A DNA stretch of 64,000 nucleotides from the NCBI GenBank assembly GCA_964650505.1, contig CAZYUD010000009.1:10335-74334 (forward strand). The letters run 5' to 3'. Every line of letters begins with the position of its first letter. The first letter of the stretch is position 1. Under the pieces are notes generated by a model that was given only the letters and a program-made list of their open reading frames with translations, was not told the DNA's origin and did not search any database. A program made the translations under genes and the position numbers. This stretch comes from an uncultured Hydrogenophaga sp. (GTDB taxonomy: Bacteria > Pseudomonadota > Gammaproteobacteria > Burkholderiales > Burkholderiaceae_C). Of this stretch, positions 29,376-37,440 are shown one piece after another.

Positions 29376-29774
29376 ATGGACAATGGTCTGCCAAGCATCC
29401 CGGTCAAACGCTACTTCACCATCGGTGAGGTAGGCGACCTCTGTGGTGTCAAACCCCATGTGCTGCGTTACTGGGAGCAGGAGTTCACTCAGCTGCGCCC
29501 CATGAAACGGCGTGGCAATCGCCGCTATTACCAGCACCATGAGGTGTTGATGATCCGCCGCATCCGCGAGCTGCTGTACGAGCAGGGCTTCACCATCAGT
29601 GGCGCACGCAACAAGTTGCAGGAGATCGCTGCACACGAACGCGGGCAGCGCCGCGACGATGCGCCTGTGGCTGTGCCATCGACCGTGGCCTTGCCCCCGT
29701 TGTCACTGGCCGAGGGCGCTGCGGTGGACCTGCGCAGTGAGCTGGCCAAGATTCGCGAGCTGCTCGTTTTTTGA
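29376..29774 (+). CDS. MerR-family transcriptional regulator
   Basis: YFTIGEVGDLCGVKPHVLRYWEQEFTQLRPMKRRGNRRYY is a MerR HTH. A conserved MerR-like gene follows ihfA in Betaproteobacteria. Confidence 0.85.
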   Translation: MDNGLPSIPVKRYFTIGEVGDLCGVKPHVLRYWEQEFTQLRPMKRRGNRRYYQHHEVLMIRRIRELLYEQGFTISGARNKLQEIAAHERGQRRDDAPVAVPSTVALPPLSLAEGAAVDLRSELAKIRELLVF

Positions 29775-29805
29775 GACTCAAAAGCAGGCTATAATTGTGG
29801 TCTTG

Positions 29806-29883
29806 TCGGCGTGTAGCGCAGCCTGGTAGCGCACTTGCATGGGGTGCAAGGGGTCGCGAGTTCGAATCCCGCCACGCCGACCA
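29806..29883 (+). tRNA. tRNA-Pro (anticodon GGG)
   Basis: Acceptor stem CGGCGTG/CACGCCG. D-arm GCGC-AGCCTGGTA-GCGC. Anticodon stem CTTGC/GCAAG with loop ATGGGGT, giving anticodon GGG. T-loop TTCGAAT, and a 3' ACCA. TATAAT at 29790-29795 sits upstream. Confidence 0.85.
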
Positions 29884-29898
29884 TTTATACCGAACAAC

Positions 29899-29932
29899 GG
29901 CCCACAAACTCAGAGTTTGTGGGCCGTTTTTT
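29899..29932. terminator. Rho-independent terminator after tRNA-Pro, convergent with the minus-strand operon
   Basis: 12-bp stem GGCCCACAAACT / AGTTTGTGGGCC, loop CAG, then T7. Confidence 0.8.
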
Positions 29933-29948: not shown

Positions 29949-31283
29949 TCAGCGCGCGTAGGGCGGCACCGCGGCAATGGCCGCCCAGTTCGCTTCAATC
30001 ACGCCACGCAGCGCAGCGCTGGGCACACGGGCGGGATCGCCCAAAAACTCCAGGGTGCGTTTTTGGTTGCGCGAGAAGTGCACCGCCAGCCGCAGCGACG
30101 CGGCGGCGGTGTTGGCCTCGTTGGTCTCGGCCATGAGTTCGGCGAGGTTGCTCCAGGCGTTGGTTCGGGTAGGGGCCATCAGCAAAGCGGTGACCAGGTT
30201 CTGCTGCGCGCTGTCGTGGCGGCCCAGGCGCAGCTCGGCAAAGCCCAGGTTGTTGCGGATTTCGGCGTCGTTGGCGTTGGACTGCACGCCCATCTCAAAC
30301 AGGCCGTGGGCCGCGACCCAGTCGCCTTGGTTGATGAGGTCGAGCCCGCCTTGGTTGAAGGCGCGGGCGGTGGCTTTGTCTTTCACCAAATGGGTTTGGG
30401 GCCGCTTCTCGCGCAGCAGGGCTCGCACGCCGGCCCAGTCGTCGGTGGCGGCCATGCGCAGCAGGGCGTTGAGATCGTCGGTGTTGAGCACCACGGCCGA
30501 GGTGGTCTGGCTGTCGCTGATGGGCGGAGGTGCTTGCAGCTGCGCCACACCCGAGCGGGTGAGCGCGCTGGCGGTGTCGCTGGACAGGCTCGGTGTGTCG
30601 AGGGCTTGCACCAACAGATAGCCACCCAAGCCGAGCGCCGCGCCCACCAGCCACCAAGCCCAGGAAGAAGAGGCTTTGGGGGAGGGCTCTGCGGCTGCTG
30701 TGTGGGCTTGTTCTAAGGGCGGCTCGTCGGCGCTGGGCTCGGGCAGCTGGCGCACGCCCCAGATTTCGGCCAAGGGCTGACCACGGTGCACGGTGTCGCC
30801 CACCTTGACCAGCAGGGCGCGGACCTGGCCGTCGCAGTCGCTGGGTATCTCAAAAATGAAGTCGTCGGTCTCTAAACACACCACGGCTTGGTCTGCCGTG
30901 ACGGAGTCGCCCACTTGCACCATCACTGCGGAGACCAGCGCTTCGGTGGCGTCACCAAAATCGGACAGGGCAACGGTGTGCAGGGCGGCGCTGGGCGCTG
31001 GTGCCGCTGGGTCTGCCGCGCCCAGTGCCGGCGCGGCCTCGTATACGGGGGTGACAGGGGCGTCCGCTGCTGCGGGTGAGGCCACAGCGGCCACTGGCTC
31101 TATGGGGACGGGTGCCGGTGCAGGTGCGTGTGCGGCGGCCTCAGGCACGAGCGCGGGTGTGGGTGCGGGGGGCGCAATGGGGCTGGCCTCGGCGGTGTCT
31201 CCAGAGTTGGGCACCACTGTGCCGCATTGGATGCACACCCGTGCGGTGTGGCGCAGCGTGGCGCCGCAATGGCTGCAAAGCAT
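29949..31283 (-). CDS. Gene F of the novel operon: zinc-ribbon / lipoyl-like barrel / TM / TPR protein (444 aa)
   Basis: An N-terminal CxxC-x11-CxxC zinc ribbon (CSHCGATLRHTARVCIQCG) and a Pro/Ala-rich linker. A biotinyl/lipoyl-like segment follows (VMVQVGDSVTADQAVVCLETDDFIFEIPSDCDGQVRALLVKVGDTVHRGQPLAEI). One TM helix (WAWWLVGAALGLGGYLLV) precedes C-terminal TPR-like repeats. It starts 18 nt after the gene E stop. Confidence 0.6.
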   Translation of the reverse strand: MLCSHCGATLRHTARVCIQCGTVVPNSGDTAEASPIAPPAPTPALVPEAAAHAPAPAPVPIEPVAAVASPAAADAPVTPVYEAAPALGAADPAAPAPSAALHTVALSDFGDATEALVSAVMVQVGDSVTADQAVVCLETDDFIFEIPSDCDGQVRALLVKVGDTVHRGQPLAEIWGVRQLPEPSADEPPLEQAHTAAAEPSPKASSSWAWWLVGAALGLGGYLLVQALDTPSLSSDTASALTRSGVAQLQAPPPISDSQTTSAVVLNTDDLNALLRMAATDDWAGVRALLREKRPQTHLVKDKATARAFNQGGLDLINQGDWVAAHGLFEMGVQSNANDAEIRNNLGFAELRLGRHDSAQQNLVTALLMAPTRTNAWSNLAELMAETNEANTAAASLRLAVHFSRNQKRTLEFLGDPARVPSAALRGVIEANWAAIAAVPPYAR

Positions 31284-31301: not shown

Positions 31302-32699
31302 TCAGACGGTGATGGTCACGCCGCGCAGTTGCGCGAGCTGGCGGATGAAGGCTTCGGCCGCGACCGGGGTGGGTGCCAAGCCGAAGGTCACAGCGAGGTG
31401 GATGAGGGTGGCCAGTTCGCTGGCATCAATTTCACCGTTGCTGGCGGCGCCGTCAAAGGCCAGGTTGAACGCCTGTTGCGCGCCAGCGGGTGGGGCGGCT
31501 GGGGCTGGAGCTGCCGCCGGCGCGGCGGCTGGGCTGTTGACCGGGGGCTGTGAGCCCGGTGGCAGGCGGCGCTGGTATTCGCTGAGGATCTGCGGTTCGG
31601 CGTCGGCGGGGAAGGACACGCCTTCGGCGTCGTCGGTGCTGCGGATCAGCAGCTGGCCCAGGGCTTGGCCTTTGGAAATGGCGGTGAGTGCCACTTGGCG
31701 GGCGGAGTAGGGGCCTTGTTCGCCGCGTTCGGTGACCACAAAAAACGCCACTTGGCTGCTGAGCACACCGGCCGGGCGCGCGGGCGGGGCGCTGCGCTGC
31801 GGGGGGCGGCTGATGCCGGTGAGATTACCGCCCAAGTTCATGCCGCCCAAGATGAGCGGGCCGTTGCCCGATTCGAGGCCTTTGCCCAGGCCTTCGAGCG
31901 CGGAGCGCTGGGCCTGGATCATGTTGAATTCGGCAAAACCGTCGTTGGTGGCAAGCTGCATGCCTTTGGCTTGCAGCGCGAGTTGGGCTTCTTGTTTGCC
32001 GAATTCGCGCAGCAGGGCAAAGCTGGCCTCGTCCAGCGCCAGCGCCATGTCGAACACACGACCGATGTCGATGCCCAGCGGCACAAATTCGCTGCGGGCG
32101 AGGGTTTTGACGTCTTCGCTCAGTGCCTCGGCGTCGACGTTGGACACCACGTTGAGGATGGGCATGCGCTGGGCGCGCTGGCCCACAGCGGCGCGCAGCT
32201 GATTGAACATGCGGCCGTTGAAGGCGGTTTCGATGTTCGACTCCGACCCCGCATGTTGGCCGCCCAGTTCAATGACCAGGCGCGCCGGGTCGGTCACCTT
32301 GACGGTGTACGACAAGCTGCCGCGCATGGCGACCACGTTGGCGGAGTTCAGGTCTTTGTATTGCCCCAGTTCGGTGCGCGGGGCGTCGAAGCGCTTTTCG
32401 CTGAGCCGAACAAAAAACACCTCACAAATGAAGTGGTTGGCGTCGGTGAACTTGTCGATCAGCAGGTGACCGAGGAAGGGAATGTTGGCGGTGTCGAGCT
32501 GGACGGTGGTGCCCGGGTTGATCTTGCCGATGTACTTGCCTTCGCGAAAGAAAAGCACACATTCGTCGCTGCGTACAGTGAGTTTGGTGCCGCGCGGAAT
32601 CGATTTGTCGGGATGCAAGTAGATGAGGTCGTCCGCCCGATCGGCCGGACGGGCCACGTACATCGATTTTGTTTCTTTGCTGAACCAGCCTAAAACCAT
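31302..32699 (-). CDS. Gene E: YdjI/COG4260-like SPFH (band-7) family protein with C-terminal extensions (465 aa)
   Basis: The N-terminal ~260 aa align with B. subtilis YdjI (DDLIYLHPDKSIPRGTKLTVRSDECVLFFREGKY...ANIPFL). A GYF/DUF4339-like block then follows (FFVVTERGEQGPYSARQVALTAISKGQALGQLLIRS). A Pro/Ala linker and a small C-terminal helical domain complete the protein. An SD GAGGA lies upstream. Confidence 0.6.
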   Translation of the reverse strand: MVLGWFSKETKSMYVARPADRADDLIYLHPDKSIPRGTKLTVRSDECVLFFREGKYIGKINPGTTVQLDTANIPFLGHLLIDKFTDANHFICEVFFVRLSEKRFDAPRTELGQYKDLNSANVVAMRGSLSYTVKVTDPARLVIELGGQHAGSESNIETAFNGRMFNQLRAAVGQRAQRMPILNVVSNVDAEALSEDVKTLARSEFVPLGIDIGRVFDMALALDEASFALLREFGKQEAQLALQAKGMQLATNDGFAEFNMIQAQRSALEGLGKGLESGNGPLILGGMNLGGNLTGISRPPQRSAPPARPAGVLSSQVAFFVVTERGEQGPYSARQVALTAISKGQALGQLLIRSTDDAEGVSFPADAEPQILSEYQRRLPPGSQPPVNSPAAAPAAAPAPAAPPAGAQQAFNLAFDGAASNGEIDASELATLIHLAVTFGLAPTPVAAEAFIRQLAQLRGVTITV

Positions 32700-32714: not shown

Positions 32715-33140
32715 TCATTGCCCGTTGGTGGGATCTTCGTAGGTGCGGCGGTCGCTGGCTTTGGGCAAGGGCGCGGCGCTGCGCCCGGCCAACAGCGGCA
32801 GGGCGACGGTGAGCAGCAGCGACAGGCCAACGACACCCCACACTGGTGTGGGCACGTCGTTGACCTGGGCGATGTCGCCGCCATAGACCACAAACATGCC
32901 GATGGTGGTGACGACCGTGACCAGCAAGGACACGATGTTGAGCCCCAGAGTGACGGCGCCATAGGTGAAATCGTCGGCGCGCAGGAGCTGGAACAGCGGG
33001 CCTTGCCAAACCACCACATACACATGCGCCAGCATCACGCCGAGCAGCGCCAAGTTGCCCGGCAGCTGCAGCGACGGCCAACCACACAGCAGCCACAGCA
33101 GCGGTGGCAGCACCAGGGTGAAGATCAGTCGGGTCATCAT
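32715..33140 (-). CDS. Gene D: small 4-TM membrane protein (141 aa)
   Basis: Four hydrophobic helices with no motifs. It overlaps the gene C stop by 4 nt (ATGA), indicating translational coupling. Confidence 0.55.
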   Translation of the reverse strand: MMTRLIFTLVLPPLLWLLCGWPSLQLPGNLALLGVMLAHVYVVVWQGPLFQLLRADDFTYGAVTLGLNIVSLLVTVVTTIGMFVVYGGDIAQVNDVPTPVWGVVGLSLLLTVALPLLAGRSAAPLPKASDRRTYEDPTNGQ

Positions 33141-34132
33141 GCGGTGTGGCAGACGGTTTGCAGAATCCAGCGCTCTTCGTCGGTGAGCGGCGCCAGGGCC
33201 TTGTCGAGCTGCTGGCGGCGGATGTTGGGCGCGTAGTGTTCAAACTCGAAGCCACATTTGAGCATTTGGGTCAGGCTGTTGACCGCTTCGCTGATTTTGG
33301 AAATGTCGCTGATGCGCCCGCCAATCGACAGCACCCATTTCTGCACCTGGCCTTGGTGCTCTTCGTCGAGCGCGGGGTTGGCCAAGGTGGTGGCGCGTAC
33401 CCAGTCGGTTTGCGGGTAGAGGCGGGCGTAGGCGGGGTACTTCACATCGGGTTGTTGCAGCCGGTTCATCAGCCCCCGGCCGTGGCGGATGGCGGGGTAA
33501 TACCGCACATCGGCATCCAACACGGTGCTTGGCGCGGTTTCCATGGGCGCAAACACTGGGGCGTTGAGGCTTTCACCCAGGCTGTGCAGCATGACGCAGT
33601 GGCCCTCAAAGGTGACGTCTCGGCTGGCGTAGCCGCCAATCGTGCTCATGCGCACCTTGAGGCTTTCGTCGACCAAGCAGGTGCCCAGCACCAGCGAGTT
33701 TTCCAGCACACAGTGGGTAGCGCGGATGCTGCCAAACACGATGGCGTTGCGCAGGTAGACGCCTTGGTTGACGGCGATGTCGCCTTTGACAATCACACGC
33801 GCGGCGTCCATGCCGTCTTGCAGACCGGGCAGGGGTTGCAGCGGGTCGTAGCGGCAGTTGAGAGAGCCGTTGATGGTGATGCCCGAGTCGAGCTGGATGC
33901 GGTGGGCGCCGGGGTTGAGCACTGTGTCGCCGCGCGAGACCACCGGGCCTTGCACATGCACATTGCCACGCAGCTCCAACGAGCGGCCATAGACCGAGCC
34001 GCCAATGCGCACCGCTTGTTCGCTGCCGTCGATGAGCACCGGAAACACCAGCTCGCGTTCGCTGGTGGGGAACACACTGCCGGCCACCGATCGGTTGACC
34101 ACCACGTTGCTGCCTTCTTGTTGCACGGCCAT
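33137..34132 (-). CDS. Gene C: bactofilin-like beta-helix repeat protein (331 aa)
   Basis: Residues ~10-190 show beta-helix periodicity rich in G/V/I/S (VVVNRSVAGSVF...VRIGGSVYGRSLELRGNVHVQGPVVSRGDTVLNPGAHRIQLDSGITINGSL). This resembles bactofilin/DUF583 or Toastrack-type folds. The C-terminal 140 aa are unassigned. Confidence 0.5.
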   Translation of the reverse strand: MAVQQEGSNVVVNRSVAGSVFPTSERELVFPVLIDGSEQAVRIGGSVYGRSLELRGNVHVQGPVVSRGDTVLNPGAHRIQLDSGITINGSLNCRYDPLQPLPGLQDGMDAARVIVKGDIAVNQGVYLRNAIVFGSIRATHCVLENSLVLGTCLVDESLKVRMSTIGGYASRDVTFEGHCVMLHSLGESLNAPVFAPMETAPSTVLDADVRYYPAIRHGRGLMNRLQQPDVKYPAYARLYPQTDWVRATTLANPALDEEHQGQVQKWVLSIGGRISDISKISEAVNSLTQMLKCGFEFEHYAPNIRRQQLDKALAPLTDEERWILQTVCHTA

Positions 34133-34134
34133 GC

Positions 34135-35241
34135 TTATTTCTCCAGAACGCTGAGCTTGCCCGAGCCCAGGAAGTCTTCAAACAGTGCGCGGGCGTCGGA
34201 CGAGATGAGGTTTTTTTGCAGCAGCGATGCGGCCGCTTTGCCCAAGCGCACCACCTCGTCGGGCTTGAGCGCACGGTGGCTGTGCTTGGGCACCTGTTGG
34301 GCGACGCGCTGCTGCGCCGCCTTGCCGTGAAAGACGGCCAAGCTGTTGTCGGCCACCTGCAGCGACACCGGCTGATCGCCCTGCACCCGCAGCGCAGCGT
34401 GGCCACTGAGCACGGTCAGGTCTTTGCCAGACGACACCGCCAGGCCTTGCACACACAGTGTGTCGGCGCTGCGCCGGCGCGCCAGGCCAGAATCCTTGTA
34501 CGCCTTGAGGGTCTGGTCGAGTGCGTCGAGCGAGTGGACCACCTCGTCGAGCCGGCTGGTTTTGAGCAGCTTGAGGGTTTCGTCGAGGTTGGCCGAGCGC
34601 GCAGAGAGGCGCTTGAGGTCCATTTCAATCGGCAGGCTGTGCGCGTCTTCGTAGGGCACACGCGCGGCCTTGAAGGCGGGAGCGTTGTCTTCGAGCTTGA
34701 TGCGGAAGATGTGCTCGCCAATCGTGCGCAGCTTGTTTTGGTAGTCGTCGGTGATTTTCTGGAAGTTCTGGTTGTACAGCTCGTAGTTCAGCCCCACGCC
34801 CACCAGCGAGCGGTCGTAGCGGCTTCGAATGTCTTGGAAAAACGCTTCGAGCTTGCCTTTGAGGCCAGTGGCATCGGCCACTTTTTTGCCCACTTCAATT
34901 TGCAGGCTCGATTCGGTTTGCACCTCAATGCGTCCACGGGTGGCCTGAAAGTCTGCCTCGATTTGCTGTTTGGTGCGTTCCAGCATGGCGGTGGTGGCCG
35001 CCACCCCGCCAACAACTGCCACCGTCTGTTTGTTGATGGCGCCGACGATCATTTCACCGACTTCTCTCATTTCGTCCTCCAATCTCTGGATTTCGCTTTC
35101 GACCCAGCGCCGCAGGTCGCGGATTTCACCGCGCATTTCGCTGCGCACGCTGTTGATTTCGCCCCGCATTTCCGAGCGCAGGGAGCTAATGGCGCTGTTG
35201 AGTTCCGCGTACGAGATGCCTGATGGGGCCTGTGTGGACAT
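34135..35241 (-). CDS. Gene B: helical/coiled-coil protein with an N-terminal tandem repeat (368 aa)
   Basis: SLRSEMRGEINSVRSEMRGEIRDLRRW is a near-exact 10-aa tandem repeat (SEMRGEIxxx). A heptad-like charge pattern runs throughout. It stops 2 nt before the gene C start. An SD GAGGAG lies upstream. Confidence 0.55.
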   Translation of the reverse strand: MSTQAPSGISYAELNSAISSLRSEMRGEINSVRSEMRGEIRDLRRWVESEIQRLEDEMREVGEMIVGAINKQTVAVVGGVAATTAMLERTKQQIEADFQATRGRIEVQTESSLQIEVGKKVADATGLKGKLEAFFQDIRSRYDRSLVGVGLNYELYNQNFQKITDDYQNKLRTIGEHIFRIKLEDNAPAFKAARVPYEDAHSLPIEMDLKRLSARSANLDETLKLLKTSRLDEVVHSLDALDQTLKAYKDSGLARRRSADTLCVQGLAVSSGKDLTVLSGHAALRVQGDQPVSLQVADNSLAVFHGKAAQQRVAQQVPKHSHRALKPDEVVRLGKAAASLLQKNLISSDARALFEDFLGSGKLSVLEK

Positions 35242-35254
35242 GGCGGCTCCTCGG

Positions 35255-37348
35255 TCACTGGTTGAGCAGGCGCGGCTGCTGGGCGCCAGCGTAGGGCAGC
35301 AGCGCGTCGGGCTCGCGAATCAGGTCAATCGGGTCGTGCACCGAGCCCCGGTTGGCGGCCTGTGTTTGCGGCATGCCGCTGAGCAGGGTTTCAAATTTCT
35401 CTGCCGTGGTGAGGGTGGAGTCGCCCATCACCAGTTTTTGCAGTTTGTCGTCCGACACGGCCTCGGCGGCGCGCTCGGACATCAAGCCCAGCGCGCTCAT
35501 GCTGTCGCGGAAAGACAGGATTTCGGCGTATTTGGACTTGAGGTCGGATTCGAGCAGGTAGACGTTTTCACGCACCGCCCGCATGTCGGCGCGGAACTGG
35601 TTGGCGATGTCGATGAGCTTTTCCGATTCCTTCTCGGTCATGCGGCGCATTTCCTCGTTGGTGCGGAACAGCTCGGATTTGCGGAAATCGGCCTTCTCGG
35701 TCCACAGGTGTTCCCACAGCGGGATCATGAGATCGGAATAGGCCTTGACCACGCTGCCAAAGCGGATGGCGTCGGCGGTGCTGTAGACATAAGGCGTGGT
35801 GTTGGACGACCACTCTTGGTTGTCCGGGTCGTAATAGAGCTGGGCTTCGGTGGAGAAGTTGAGCACCGGATAGGCCGAGCCGGTCATCACCTTTTGCAGC
35901 ACATGGCCAAAGTGTTTCACCGCTTCGTCGAACTGCGATTCGATGTGGCGCGGGCGTTGGCCCACGTCCAGGCGGCGGCCTTCGGCGTCGAACTGAGCGC
36001 CTTCCATGAACTGCTGCACCGCGTCGTAGCTCTGGGCCAGCTGCTCTTCCAAATCGGGTTTGGACTGCAGGCGTTTGTGGATTTCCACATCGTCGTGCAA
36101 TCGGGTGATGAGGTCGTCAAACGACAGCAAATAGGCTTTGGAAGCCTTGATGCCCAGCAGTTCTTCAATGTAGGCACTCGATTGGATGGTGCGCGGGCAA
36201 TACACCCGGCGGCTGCACCAGGCGGCGCTGCCCAGCACATCGAGCAGGTTGGTGTGCAGGGTGTTGACCGAGGCCACCCGGGCTTGGGCGTAGAGCGCAC
36301 ACACCCGGTCGAGGTTGTTGAACACCTCGTTGAGTTCGGCAAAGATGGCCAGCCCGCGTTCGCGGTTGCTGTTGACCCGGTCGACAAACGCCGAGATCGC
36401 CTTGGGGTCGAGCTGGCTGCTCATGTGCACACGCGGACCGGCGTCGGCGCTGGGCAGCGACGCGCTCGCAGCGCGCTCCACCAGCAGGCTGTTTTTGGGC
36501 ACCAAGGGCAGGGTGAGGTCGATGTCGCGCAGCTTGCCCAGGCTCAAGGTGAATTGGCCCACCAGTTGCTGCAAATCGCTTTCTTCGCCAAACAGTTCGT
36601 GCACCGGGTCGTCGCTGTGTGCGTGCTCCTCGGGCGTGAGCAGCGGCGGCACCTGCAGCAGCGCCTGCACCTTGTCGGAGATGTGGGACAGGCCTTCTTC
36701 CATGGCCGACACATCGATGGCCTTGAGCTTGACCGGGGCGTGCGACTCTGAGAGGTCGAGCAGCACCTGGTGGCCCGACACCTCGGCGCTGCGCAAAGCA
36801 AAGTCGATGGGCGTGACCTTGGTGTCGGGGAAACCCACCGCGCGGCTTTTTAACTCGGTCTTGAGTTCCTCGATGCGGCGGCTGTTGTGTTGGCAGGCGC
36901 TGTCGGCGCTGGCCAGCGCAGCGTCGGCCTGGGCCAAGGCTTGTGAGAGCTCGGCCTTGATGGCGTTGGCGGCTTTTTTGGCGGTGCTGAAAGCCCAAGC
37001 AACCAGCACCGCCAGCACCACCACAGCGGTGATGGCGCCCATGAACCACCAGCCCAGCAGCGCGCCGGTCACGGCGGCCACCGCTTGGCCGATGGCCGCG
37101 CCGTTGAACACACGGTCTTGTGCGGTGGCCAGCGCTTCGCTGGCGGTTTTTTGCGCCTTGCGGGCTTGATCGAGTGTGGACTGCAAGCCGGGTTGCTGGC
37201 GCTCGGCGGCCTCGATGTCGCCGCGCAAGTCTTCGCCGCGCCGCCATGCGGCCAGCATAGGCATCAGGTGGTGAATCACGCCAAGCACCACCGTCTCATC
37301 TGCGCTGTCGACGTTTTCAATGGGTTTGGCCAAGGCCAATTGGGACAT
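35255..37348 (-). CDS. Gene A: large single-TM protein of unknown function (698 aa)
   Basis: The start was set at the ATG preceded by GGAGG. One TM helix (LLGWWFMGAITAVVVLAVLVAWAF) follows at ~aa 100-125. A ~570-aa soluble domain follows with no P-loop or known catalytic motif. It is the first gene of the operon. Confidence 0.55.
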   Translation of the reverse strand: MSQLALAKPIENVDSADETVVLGVIHHLMPMLAAWRRGEDLRGDIEAAERQQPGLQSTLDQARKAQKTASEALATAQDRVFNGAAIGQAVAAVTGALLGWWFMGAITAVVVLAVLVAWAFSTAKKAANAIKAELSQALAQADAALASADSACQHNSRRIEELKTELKSRAVGFPDTKVTPIDFALRSAEVSGHQVLLDLSESHAPVKLKAIDVSAMEEGLSHISDKVQALLQVPPLLTPEEHAHSDDPVHELFGEESDLQQLVGQFTLSLGKLRDIDLTLPLVPKNSLLVERAASASLPSADAGPRVHMSSQLDPKAISAFVDRVNSNRERGLAIFAELNEVFNNLDRVCALYAQARVASVNTLHTNLLDVLGSAAWCSRRVYCPRTIQSSAYIEELLGIKASKAYLLSFDDLITRLHDDVEIHKRLQSKPDLEEQLAQSYDAVQQFMEGAQFDAEGRRLDVGQRPRHIESQFDEAVKHFGHVLQKVMTGSAYPVLNFSTEAQLYYDPDNQEWSSNTTPYVYSTADAIRFGSVVKAYSDLMIPLWEHLWTEKADFRKSELFRTNEEMRRMTEKESEKLIDIANQFRADMRAVRENVYLLESDLKSKYAEILSFRDSMSALGLMSERAAEAVSDDKLQKLVMGDSTLTTAEKFETLLSGMPQTQAANRGSVHDPIDLIREPDALLPYAGAQQPRLLNQ

Positions 37349-37360
37349 GTGGGGACCTCC

Positions 37361-37440
37361 TAAAGCGGTCAAAAATCCAATGAAATCTATCAATTGTTAT
37401 TTTTTATTGTCAAAAATTCCAATAAACCCAGGCAGACCAT
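37361..37440 (-). promoter_or_regulatory. AT-rich promoter region of the six-gene operon with a direct repeat
   Basis: ~30% GC. GTCAAAAATCCAAT at 37368-37381 is repeated as GTCAAAAATTCCAAT at 37410-37424. It lies immediately upstream of gene A. Confidence 0.45.

What the first reader, a model, noticed from the sequence alone, without database searches (positions are those of the whole stretch)
31302..32699. Gene E: YdjI-like SPFH domain fused to a GYF/DUF4339-like block and a C-terminal helical module
The N-terminal 260 aa align motif-for-motif with B. subtilis YdjI (IYLHPDKSIPRGTKLTVRSDECVLFFREGKY / NIPFL / tandem beta strands). The Bacillus C-terminal zinc ribbon is absent here. In its place the protein has FFVVTERGEQGPYSARQV...LLIRS (GYF_2-like), then a Pro/Ala-rich linker and a ~55-aa helical tail (EIDASELATLIHLAVTFGLAPTPVAAEAFIRQL). 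In this operon the zinc ribbon seems to have moved to a separate protein (gene F). This looks like a domain-shuffled variant of the Psp-associated YdjI family.
Basis: partly seen in the sequence, partly recalled or inferred. Interest (0 to 1): 0.6.

Follow-up and report, generated by a model that had tools for sequence, protein, structure and literature searches.

The report
SPFH scaffold with GYF-like and TerB-like modules
This gene encodes a soluble membrane-scaffold protein of the stomatin/flotillin (SPFH) kind carrying two small adaptor domains on flexible linkers; the protein itself is a modest variant of a known family, but it is the fifth gene of a conserved operon whose other four proteins match no described family.

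Summary
The ORF is real: 31302..32699 on the minus strand, 465 aa.

- **SPFH domain (aa 14-276):** Pfam Band_7_1, E 1.5e-12. The AlphaFold model matches stomatin, HflK/C and flotillin structures.
- **GYF_2-like domain (aa 319-378):** a divergent fold. A distant orthologue's aligned block hits Pfam GYF_2, and the top PDB fold matches are GYF domains.
- **Helical tail (aa 405-459):** a single TerB-like unit. Its profile finds tandem TerB/DUF533/Tic110-type repeat proteins in a 1.8-billion-protein library.
- **Zinc ribbon:** absent; the only Cys residues are 47 and 92.

Two parts of the interpretation fail. The zinc ribbon did not move to gene F. Sister proteins carry a C-terminal zinc ribbon where this protein has the tail, and at least one is still followed by a gene-F-like zinc-ribbon protein. 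The operon also shows no Psp link: no PspA or TPM domain was detected.

Gene E is the last gene of a conserved five-gene cassette, A-B-C-D-E, found in all 8 loci with enough upstream flank. The cassette is largely confined to Betaproteobacteria, sometimes beside integrases or defence genes.

The most likely role is a membrane-recruited oligomeric scaffold. Function remains inferred. Verdict: new variant of a known kind; moderate interest.

The parts
31302..32699 (-). Gene E, 465 aa: soluble SPFH protein with no predicted TM segment
   Evidence: ORF; Pfam Band_7_1; 123 homologues; no hydrophobic 19-mer above threshold
31872..32660 (-). SPFH (Band_7_1) domain with its two long C-terminal helices, aa 14-276
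   Evidence: Pfam PF13421 E 1.5e-12 and PF01145 E 8e-7; AF2 pLDDT mostly above 90; Foldseek against PDB finds stomatin, HflK/C, erlin, prohibitin and flotillin, E 3e-9 to 1e-5 over about 250 columns
31746..31871 (-). Gly-rich then Pro/Arg-rich disordered linker, aa 277-318
   Evidence: pLDDT below 50 for aa 279-313; sequence NGPLILGGMNLGGNLTGISRPPQRSAPPARPAG
31566..31745 (-). Divergent GYF_2-like domain (beta-beta-alpha-beta-beta-alpha), aa 319-378. G329, P330, R353, E374 and R378 are invariant in 85 homologues.
31488..31565 (-). Pro/Ala-rich linker, aa 379-404
   Evidence: Sequence LPPGSQPPVNSPAAAPAAAPAPAAPP; low pLDDT for aa 386-400
31305..31487 (-). Three-helix C-terminal tail forming a single TerB-like unit, aa 405-465
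35255..37348 (-). Gene A, 697 aa: TM hairpin, coiled coil and a large conserved cytoplasmic region; orphan family. The start is probably the ATG at 37348, not the TTG at 37393.
   Evidence: Alignment of 6 orthologues; relatives called at 697 aa; TM at aa 102-126; no Pfam hit
34135..35241 (-). Gene B, 368 aa: soluble protein with an amphipathic-helix / coiled-coil N-terminal half; no PspA or Snf7 signal
33137..34132 (-). Gene C, 331 aa: bactofilin-like beta-helix in the N-terminal half, unknown C-terminal half
   Evidence: 3 of 7 orthologues hit Pfam Bactofilin, best E 7e-4; two JGI names read 'CcmA (bactofilin family)'
32715..33140 (-). Gene D, 141 aa: small membrane protein with four hydrophobic segments; its start overlaps the stop of gene C by 4 nt
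29949..31283 (-). Gene F, 444 aa: N-terminal zinc ribbon, Pro/Ala-rich segment, lipoyl-like domain lacking the modifiable Lys, probable TM, TPR. This is an accessory partner, present in 5 of 8 loci with flank.
   Evidence: Pfam; homologues in L005, L006 and L007, L010 and L014
37384..37413 (-). Sigma-70-like promoter candidate upstream of gene A (TTGACA-18-TAGATT, 10 of 12 matches)
   Evidence: a consensus match only
29807..29883 (+). tRNA-Pro(GGG) bordering the cassette, with its terminator hairpin at 29896-29928

Best explanation
Gene E encodes a cytoplasmic SPFH scaffold protein of the YdjI/SamI class (Pfam Band_7_1) with no transmembrane segment.

**Shown computationally:** the architecture is SPFH domain plus long helices, disordered Gly/Pro linker, divergent GYF_2-like domain, Pro/Ala linker, then one TerB-like three-helix unit. 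The gene is the last member of a tightly packed, conserved operon A-B-C-D-E, with F accessory.

**Inferred:**
- Like other SPFH proteins, E assembles into a ring or cage on the cytoplasmic face of the inner membrane.
- Having no anchor of its own, it is recruited there by co-encoded membrane proteins: D (4 TM), A (TM hairpin) and, where present, F (zinc ribbon-TM-TPR). B. subtilis YdjI/SamI is recruited in this way by YdjG/YdjH.
- The GYF-like domain and the TerB-like unit hang from the assembly on flexible tethers and act as docking modules. The GYF-like domain probably binds a proline-rich segment; candidates are the Pro/Ala tract of gene F or E's own linkers. The TerB-like unit is probably a membrane-proximal or ligand-sensing contact.
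- In sister lineages the TerB-like unit is exchanged for a zinc ribbon or dropped.
- The whole cassette is most likely an envelope-associated stress-sensing or surveillance module. It is not part of a Psp operon.
For: - **SPFH fold:** Band_7_1 and Band_7 hits; structural matches covering the SPFH core and the helices that build the cage wall in HflK/C, stomatin, prohibitin and flotillin.
- **Soluble protein:** no TM segment in E, whereas D and A have them.
- **TerB-like tail:** the profile search reaches TerB, DUF533 and Tic110-repeat proteins at E 5e-10 to 1e-3 in 1.84e9 sequences, as 3-8 tandem units each.
- **Interchangeable C-terminus:** 61 tail, 27 none, 23-24 zinc ribbon.
- **Conserved cassette:** A-B-C-D-E synteny in L002, L003, L005, L006, L007, L009, L010 and L014, with partial synteny in L001 and L008. 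Intergenic gaps are at most 18 nt or the genes overlap.
- **Literature analogies:** YdjI is soluble and needs YdjG/YdjH for membrane foci (PMC8581546). SamI restrains SamGH signalling (bioRxiv 10.64898/2026.02.06.704340). The bacterial GYF domain of GltJ binds a proline-rich sequence, and about 44% of bacterial GYF proteins pair it with a zinc ribbon through a flexible linker (PMC11135422). TerB domains have been proposed to be amphitropic and involved in membrane surveillance (bioRxiv 10.1101/2025.09.30.679545).
Against: - Nothing here demonstrates oligomerisation, membrane recruitment or any binding partner.
- The window sequence itself gives no Pfam GYF_2 or TerB hit even at E<=10.
- The aromatic residues that line the proline-binding pocket of canonical GYF domains are mostly replaced (W to F/R), so proline-rich binding is uncertain.
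- Genes A-D have no recognisable catalytic or signalling domain, so the output of the system is unknown.
- Gene F is missing from some loci, so it cannot be an obligatory anchor.
Confidence: 0.6

Rival explanations
1. One reading: a domain-shuffled member of the Psp-associated YdjI family. On this view the C-terminal zinc ribbon was replaced by the GYF and helical modules and relocated to gene F, and the operon works as a PspA-recruiting envelope-stress module.
For: Same Pfam family as YdjI and no TM segment, like YdjI. A neighbouring protein has a zinc ribbon and a TM segment, loosely like YdjG.
Against: No PspA_IM30, Snf7 or TPM_phosphatase hit in any operon protein. Only about 20% identity to the recalled YdjI sequence. 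Sister proteins combine the GYF-like block with their own C-terminal ribbon, and one is still followed by a gene-F homologue bearing the N-terminal ribbon (L007). Gene F is absent from several loci.
Confidence: 0.1
2. The A-E(F) cassette is a mobile anti-phage or abortive-infection system. E is a membrane-surveillance scaffold, and its TerB-like unit senses phage-induced membrane perturbation.
For: The cassette sits in different genomic neighbourhoods. It lies next to integrases or IS elements in L005 and L009, in an ICE-like region in L008, and beside ZorA/ZorB-like, IetA-like and PDC-M72B genes in L010. In the window it abuts a tRNA-Pro, and three metagenome contigs break at that spot. TerB domains occur in the defence systems Bunzi, Shango and Dionysus.
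Against: No significant PADLOC hit for any of the six proteins; the best is LeoBC at E 3.5e-5 over a coiled-coil/TM stretch. No PHROG hits. No nuclease, protease, pore-forming or NTPase effector is recognisable. In L006, L007 and the window the flanks are housekeeping genes. No integrase was found among the window flanks examined. No relative was found in viral contigs.
Confidence: 0.17
3. The cassette builds a membrane-attached cytoskeletal or polar scaffold. It would combine a bactofilin-like polymer (C), a coiled-coil protein (B) and the SPFH ring (E), and would position another machine. The GYF-like domain would act as in the GltJ focal-adhesion switch.
For: Gene C orthologues give sub-threshold Bactofilin hits, and two carry CcmA names. 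B and A are coiled-coil rich. The nearest bacterial structural match of the GYF-like domain is GltJ. GYF-linker-ZnR switch modules have been described.
Against: The Bactofilin hits are weak (best E 7e-4, 3 of 7 orthologues). No motility, division or cell-wall gene is linked to the cassette. The patchy, island-like distribution is unusual for a core cytoskeletal element.
Confidence: 0.1
4. E is a classical SPFH regulator of a membrane protease or of an NfeD partner, of the HflK/C-FtsH or QmcA-YbbJ type.
For: The SPFH fold matches HflK/C and stomatin.
Against: No protease, FtsH or NfeD domain is present in the operon. E lacks the N-terminal TM anchor that those SPFH proteins have.
Confidence: 0.03

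Closest known systems
B. subtilis YdjI / SamI (Band_7_1 SPFH protein of the pspA-ydjGHI operon)
   Same: Same Pfam family, PF13421. Both are soluble with no TM segment. In both, the SPFH domain is followed by a low-complexity linker and a small C-terminal module. Both are encoded last in an operon with membrane proteins, one of which has an N-terminal zinc ribbon.
   Different: Only about 20% identity to the recalled sequence. This protein has no C-terminal zinc ribbon. It has an extra GYF_2-like domain and a TerB-like tail. The operon has no pspA and no TPM-domain YdjH. Partners A-D belong to unrelated, undescribed families.
Bacterial GYF / Pfam GYF_2 (DUF4339) domains, e.g. M. xanthus GltJ (PDB 7z3c)
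   Same: Same small beta-beta-alpha-beta-beta fold. The GP[YF] turn is conserved. The domain is flanked by flexible linkers. Sister proteins pair it with a zinc ribbon, as about 44% of bacterial GYF proteins do.
   Different: It is too divergent for the Pfam model (no hit at E<=10). Trp positions are replaced by Phe or Arg. It sits in the C-terminal half of a soluble SPFH protein, not at the N-terminus of a membrane receptor. No ligand is known.
TerB / DUF533 / Tic110-type helical units (Pfam PF05099 clan)
   Same: Shares the A-DG-x-(I/L)-(T/S)-x2-E-x3-L-x2-L-A-x2-LGL signature and the helix-turn-helix-helix length. The profile of the tail retrieves such repeat proteins.
   Different: There is a single unit, corresponding to roughly positions 70-114 of the 118-position TerB model. 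It is neither a full TerB domain nor a tandem array. In the window protein the Asp of 'DG' is Asn (SNGEI). No ter genes are linked.
Cage-forming SPFH assemblies (HflK/C, stomatin, flotillin, prohibitin, erlin)
   Same: The SPFH core plus the long helices superpose on these structures.
   Different: E lacks their membrane anchor and client proteins. Oligomeric state was not tested.

Membership tests
SPFH / Pfam Band_7_1 (PF13421) | Sequence match to the family model above the curated cut-off | tested here: met
   48.1 bits against a cut-off of 24, E 1.5e-12, aa 31-220. All 26 scanned homologues also match.
SPFH / Pfam Band_7_1 (PF13421) | SPFH alpha/beta fold followed by long helices | tested here: met
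   AF2 model at high pLDDT. Foldseek E 3e-9 to stomatin, HflK/C and others over about 250-260 columns.
SPFH / Pfam Band_7_1 (PF13421) | Formation of large ring or cage oligomers at a membrane | not testable with these tools
   No multimer prediction or experiment was available.
YdjI/SamI-type Psp-associated module | Soluble Band_7_1 protein without a TM anchor | tested here: met
   No hydrophobic segment.
YdjI/SamI-type Psp-associated module | C-terminal zinc ribbon after a low-complexity linker | tested here: not met
   Only Cys47 and Cys92 are present. The feature is met in 23-24 sister clusters.
YdjI/SamI-type Psp-associated module | Operon contains pspA (PspA_IM30 / ESCRT-III) | tested here: not met
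   No PspA_IM30 or Snf7 hit for any of the 6 proteins at E<=1, nor for 6 gene-B orthologues at E<=10. The PDB profile search was negative. Fold-level similarity of gene B was not tested.
YdjI/SamI-type Psp-associated module | Partner YdjG (two zinc ribbons + NTF2-like + TM) and partner YdjH (TPM domain) | tested here: not met
   Gene F shares only an N-terminal zinc ribbon and a TM segment; the rest is lipoyl-like plus TPR. There is no TPM hit. YdjG and YdjH are described in PMC11237479.
GYF_2 (PF14237) | Match to the Pfam model | tested here: inconclusive
   The window block gives no hit at E<=10. The aligned block of orthologue P0118 scores 22.5 bits alone (cut-off 25.8) and 34.3 bits for the whole protein, with the best stretch at 333-379. 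Homology of the two blocks: E 1.6e-20.
GYF_2 (PF14237) | GYF fold (beta-beta-alpha-beta-beta) | tested here: met
GYF_2 (PF14237) | Binding of proline-rich sequences | not testable with these tools
   Pocket aromatics are only partly conserved; this is an inference from the alignment.
TerB (PF05099) clan | Match to the Pfam model | tested here: not met
   No TerB or DUF533 hit for the tail, or for any of 26 full-length homologues, at E<=10.
TerB (PF05099) clan | Profile-level relationship to TerB-type units | tested here: met
   The profile of aa 314-465 retrieves 25 or more proteins whose matching stretches (profile positions of about 71-141, 3-8 per protein) are the units that Pfam calls TerB, DUF533 or Tic110. 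The match covers only the C-terminal half of the TerB model.

The most novel reading that the evidence does not exclude
The conserved A-B-C-D-E cassette would be a previously undescribed membrane-surveillance system, possibly anti-phage. Its parts are an orphan TM/coiled-coil protein, an amphipathic-helix protein, a bactofilin-like protein, a 4-TM protein and this SPFH-GYF-TerB scaffold. The SPFH cage would use interchangeable C-terminal plugs (TerB-like unit, zinc ribbon or none) to couple to different sensors. The cassette is largely confined to Betaproteobacteria and often sits on mobile or defence islands.
Probability: 0.2. Interest if true: 0.65.

Novelty: new variant of a known kind. Interest (0 to 1): 0.4.

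Why it matters
SPFH proteins organise membrane microdomains and cage client proteins. How the soluble Band_7_1 class (YdjI/SamI) is wired to its partners is barely known.

This family offers a natural experiment. The same SPFH-GYF core carries three alternative C-terminal modules, and it sits in a compact operon of four uncharacterised partner proteins. That makes the adaptor logic directly testable through module swaps, two-hybrid assays and co-folding.

If the cassette proves to be a stress or defence system, it would add a new SPFH-centred type. It would also give a function to a divergent bacterial GYF domain and to a minimal TerB unit. If not, gene E remains a correctly annotated 'SPFH domain-containing protein' with a more detailed domain map.

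Tried and rejected
- **Direct Pfam detection of GYF_2, TerB or SHOCT** in the window protein, its isolated blocks and 26 homologues at E<=10: negative except for P0118.
- **NCBIfam, PADLOC and PHROGs for gene E:** no hits.
- **PDB sequence-profile searches** for gene E, gene B and gene C: nothing meaningful.
- **'Zinc ribbon relocated to gene F':** rejected, because L007 has both ribbons.
- **PspA-like gene B:** no sequence support.
- **NfeD- or protease-linked SPFH:** no such domains.
- **Prophage origin:** no relatives found in IMG/VR with two conserved peptide patterns.
- **Weak PADLOC hits of genes A and B** (LeoBC, LmuB, ZorA): judged to be coiled-coil/TM composition matches.
- **afdb50 fold library:** unavailable.
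- **Finding the same chromosomal site without the cassette:** the MerR look-up gave only contigs that end at the tRNA, and the FadB-like look-up had no exact record.
- **Homologue search for gene A:** found only close 'hypothetical' relatives.
Full report
**1. Observation**

The interval 31302..32699 holds a single ATG-to-stop ORF of 465 aa on the minus strand. The plus-strand translation is full of stops.

The gene is real:
- Pfam Band_7_1 scores 48.1 bits (cut-off 24, E 1.5e-12, aa 31-220), and Band_7 scores E 8e-7.
- A search of 5.8 billion clustered proteins returns 123 relatives, with E down to 6e-288. Most come from metagenomes. The few that are named are Betaproteobacteria, Limnohabitans or 'SPFH domain-containing protein'.
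- A close relative has the same six genes called in the same order (L014).

The nearest genome match is a Burkholderiaceae MAG at 98% identity. More distant matches (about 60%) lie in Polaromonas, Comamonadaceae and Betaproteobacteria MAGs.

**2. Anatomy of the protein**

An AlphaFold2 model built on 85 homologues (mean pLDDT 84.6) shows five segments:
- a well-folded SPFH domain with two long helices, aa 14-276;
- a disordered Gly-rich then Pro/Arg-rich linker, aa 279-313;
- a compact beta-beta-alpha-beta-beta-alpha domain, aa 319-378, pLDDT about 95;
- a disordered Pro/Ala linker, aa 386-400;
- a three-helix bundle, aa 405-459, pLDDT about 97.

A second model of aa 314-465 alone reproduces the last two domains (pLDDT 89.8).

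Foldseek against the PDB aligns about 250-260 columns of the N-terminal part with human stomatin, HflK/C, erlin, prohibitin and flotillin, at E 3e-9 to 1e-5. The matched region therefore includes both the SPFH core and the helices that build the wall of the cage assemblies.

The protein has no hydrophobic segment. Its only Cys residues are 47 and 92, so there is no zinc ribbon.

**3. The middle domain is GYF_2-like**

The window sequence gives no Pfam GYF_2 hit, even at E<=10. Three other lines point to GYF:
- The block is homologous to the equivalent block of the distant orthologue P0118: an HMM of the block hits P0118 aa 331-392 at E 1.6e-20. That P0118 block (aa 333-379, MKWYLESSGGSEGPYNVRHL...EWFPAAQEEVLL) is the best-scoring stretch of a Pfam GYF_2 match, 2e-8 for the whole protein and 9.7e-5 for the isolated block.
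- In Foldseek against the PDB, the six best hits of the C-terminal model are GYF domains: yeast Smy2, human GIGYF2 and the bacterial GltJ GYF domain 7z3c. GIGYF1, an Arabidopsis GYF domain and CD2BP2 follow. Probabilities are 0.8-0.97, but E is only about 0.1.

The GP[YF] turn is invariant in the family (G329, P330). The Trp positions of the GYF_2 consensus are replaced by Phe or Arg (alignment). Published work shows that bacterial GYF domains generally lack the eponymous G-Y-F residues yet can still bind proline-rich sequences (PMC11135422).

I call this a divergent GYF_2-like domain. The fold is supported; formal Pfam membership is inconclusive.

**4. The tail is a single TerB-like unit**

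I searched a profile of aa 314-465 (19 diverse family members) with HMMER against 1.84 billion representative proteins. Only 71 hits reached E<=1e-3.

Roughly the better-scoring two-thirds are the same SPFH family, full-length proteins and fragments. They include a subgroup of 510-580 aa that adds a second, canonical GYF_2 at the extreme C-terminus (P0151 aa 519-554, 26.1 bits).

The other hits match only the tail part of the profile (positions of about 71-141), and they match it 3-8 times in tandem. Pfam labels these proteins TerB, DUF533 and Tic110 repeats. Some carry a C-terminal HNH nuclease (P0180, P0183). Others carry an N-terminal winged HTH (P0187-P0189, P0194).

A tail-only HMM recovers the individual units, all with the signature A-DG-x-[IVL]-[TS]-x2-E-x3-L-x2-L-x3-LG[LI]. 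In P0180 the first unit (aa 86-115) lies inside Pfam's TerB match (aa 29-118, model positions 29-116 of 118). The tail therefore corresponds to the C-terminal half of a TerB domain.

**5. C-terminal modularity and the 'moved zinc ribbon'**

Of the 120 listed cluster representatives, 61 have the helical tail, 27 end shortly after the GYF-like domain, and 23-24 end in a CPFCGExIKAxAIKCR[FY]CxS zinc ribbon. The rest are fragments. All keep the GYF-like block. The block is therefore a clade-specific insertion between SPFH and a variable terminal module. It is not a replacement for the ribbon.

Gene F is ZnR, Pro/Ala tract, lipoyl-like domain, probable TM and TPR. It has homologues next to the SPFH gene in four loci:
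- L005, a tail-type locus;
- L006, a no-tail locus, where it lies on the opposite strand;
- L007, a ribbon-type locus;
- L010.

In L005, L006 and L007 the same N-terminal M-x-C-x2-C...LR-x-TA-x2-CI-x-CG ribbon aligns. In L010 only the C-terminal TPR region aligns.

Because L007 has both ribbons, the idea that the ribbon migrated from E to F is not supported. The Bacillus operon likewise has a separate zinc-ribbon membrane protein, YdjG.

**6. Context**

Gene E is the fifth gene of a compact minus-strand operon:
- A, 35255-37348;
- B, 34135-35241;
- C, 33137-34132;
- D, 32715-33140;
- E;
- F, 29949-31283.

Intergenic gaps are at most 18 nt, and C and D overlap by 4 nt. A sigma-70-like promoter candidate lies at 37413-37384. 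Gene A most likely starts at the ATG at 37348, because orthologues are 697 aa.

tblastn of the six proteins against the fetched loci shows A-B-C-D-E in the same order in L002, L003, L005, L006, L007, L009 and L010. L014 shows the same order, as does the P0072 locus for which no DNA could be fetched. L001 and L008 show partial synteny.

The partners:
- **A** has a TM hairpin, coiled coil and a strongly conserved C-terminal region. It has no Pfam, NCBIfam or PDB relative, and only about 21 clusters were found.
- **B** is soluble, with apolipoprotein-like amphipathic helices. No PspA_IM30 or Snf7 hit appears in six orthologues.
- **C** has a beta-helical N-terminal half. Three of 7 orthologues give sub-threshold Bactofilin hits, and two carry JGI 'CcmA' names.
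- **D** is a 141-aa protein with four hydrophobic segments.

So this is not a Psp operon.

The cassette's neighbourhood varies from locus to locus:
- In the window it lies between tRNA-Pro (29807-29883) and fatty-acid beta-oxidation genes.
- Elsewhere it lies beside integrases or IS21 elements (L005, L009), in an ICE-like region (L008), or beside ZorA/ZorB-like, IetA-like and PDC-M72B genes (L010).
- It is also found among housekeeping genes (L006, L007).
- Three metagenome contigs carrying the identical MerR gene all end at the tRNA. This hints at strain variation at the cassette boundary.
- No relative was found in viral contigs.

**7. Mechanism**

Shown here: the fold and domain order, the absence of a TM segment, the flexible linkers, the interchangeable C-terminus and the operon conservation.

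Inferred by analogy:
- SPFH proteins form membrane-attached rings or cages (the structures matched).
- The soluble Band_7_1 protein YdjI/SamI is brought to the membrane by YdjG/YdjH and restrains their signalling (PMC8581546; bioRxiv 2026.02.06.704340).
- The GltJ GYF domain docks a proline-rich partner, and GYF-linker-ZnR pairs act as switch modules (PMC11135422).
- TerB domains have been proposed to be amphitropic membrane-surveillance modules.

I therefore propose that E oligomerises under the inner membrane and is held there by D and A, or by F where it is present. It would use the tethered GYF-like and TerB-like modules to capture partners. Candidate ligands are the Pro/Ala tract of F or E's own linkers. 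The biological output is unknown: envelope-stress handling, anti-phage surveillance or cytoskeletal scaffolding are all possible. I rank stress or surveillance scaffolding first.

**8. Comparison, novelty and verdict**

The protein is a member of Pfam Band_7_1 and resembles YdjI/SamI in being soluble and operon-terminal. It fails three defining features of the Psp-associated YdjI module: the C-terminal ribbon, pspA, and the TPM/YdjG-type partners.

Databases already hold it as 'SPFH domain-containing protein', and the Band_7_1 + GYF_2 combination is recorded for P0118. The new points are the recognition of the divergent GYF-like block throughout the clade, the minimal TerB-like tail, the three-way C-terminal modularity and the conserved orphan partners.

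Verdict: new variant of a known kind, interest about 0.4.

Noticed in passing
window 29949-31283 (-), gene F aa 103-174: A lipoyl/biotinyl-like domain (Pfam Biotin_lipoyl, E 1.7e-15) sits inside a zinc ribbon - Pro/Ala tract - TM - TPR protein. The modifiable lysine position reads ETDD instead of E[ST]DKA, so the domain cannot be lipoylated. The same architecture occurs in close relative L014, but the domain is absent from the shorter gene-F homologue in L007.
   Followed up: partly
window 33137-34132 (-), gene C: The N-terminal half looks like a bactofilin-type beta-helix: 3 of 7 orthologues hit PF04519 at best E 7e-4, and two carry JGI 'CcmA' names. The conserved C-terminal half (CGFEYEHY motif) has no known relative. 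The family has 179 clusters and no Pfam domain.
   Followed up: partly
window 35255-37348 (-), gene A: An orphan 697-aa protein with a TM hairpin and a very strongly conserved block, DLMIPLWEHLWTEKADFRKSELFRTNE...EKESEKLI...FRADMRxVRENV. It has no Pfam, NCBIfam, PADLOC or PDB relative. The ORF list starts it at the TTG at 37393, but orthologues and a promoter-like site indicate the ATG at 37348.
   Followed up: partly
L010 13185-19938: In one metagenome locus the cassette lies next to ZorA/ZorB-like genes, an IetA-like AAA ATPase and a PDC-M72B HEPN protein. This is a defence-island setting.
   Followed up: partly
L011-L013, corresponding to window ~29376-29850: Three independent metagenome contigs carrying the identical MerR gene all end about 70 nt downstream of it, at the tRNA-Pro. 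This suggests assembly-graph branching, and hence strain variation, exactly at the cassette boundary.
   Followed up: no
P0180, P0183, P0187-P0208: These proteins are built of 3-8 tandem TerB-like units. Some are fused to a C-terminal HNH nuclease and others to an N-terminal winged HTH. Both are uncharacterised architectures that share the tail's signature.
   Followed up: partly
P0118, P0151, P0153-P0164 and others (510-580 aa): A distant subgroup of the same SPFH family keeps the GYF-like block and the TerB-like unit. After a poly-Pro stretch it adds a second, canonical GYF_2 domain at the extreme C-terminus. In L008 this subgroup still has C- and D-like genes upstream, plus a fragment of a B-like gene at the contig edge.
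   Followed up: partly
window 29896-29928 (+): A strong 15-bp hairpin followed by a T-run lies directly after tRNA-Pro, about 20 nt beyond gene F's stop codon on the opposite strand. It has a T-run only on the plus strand, so it probably terminates the tRNA transcript and not the cassette.
   Followed up: no
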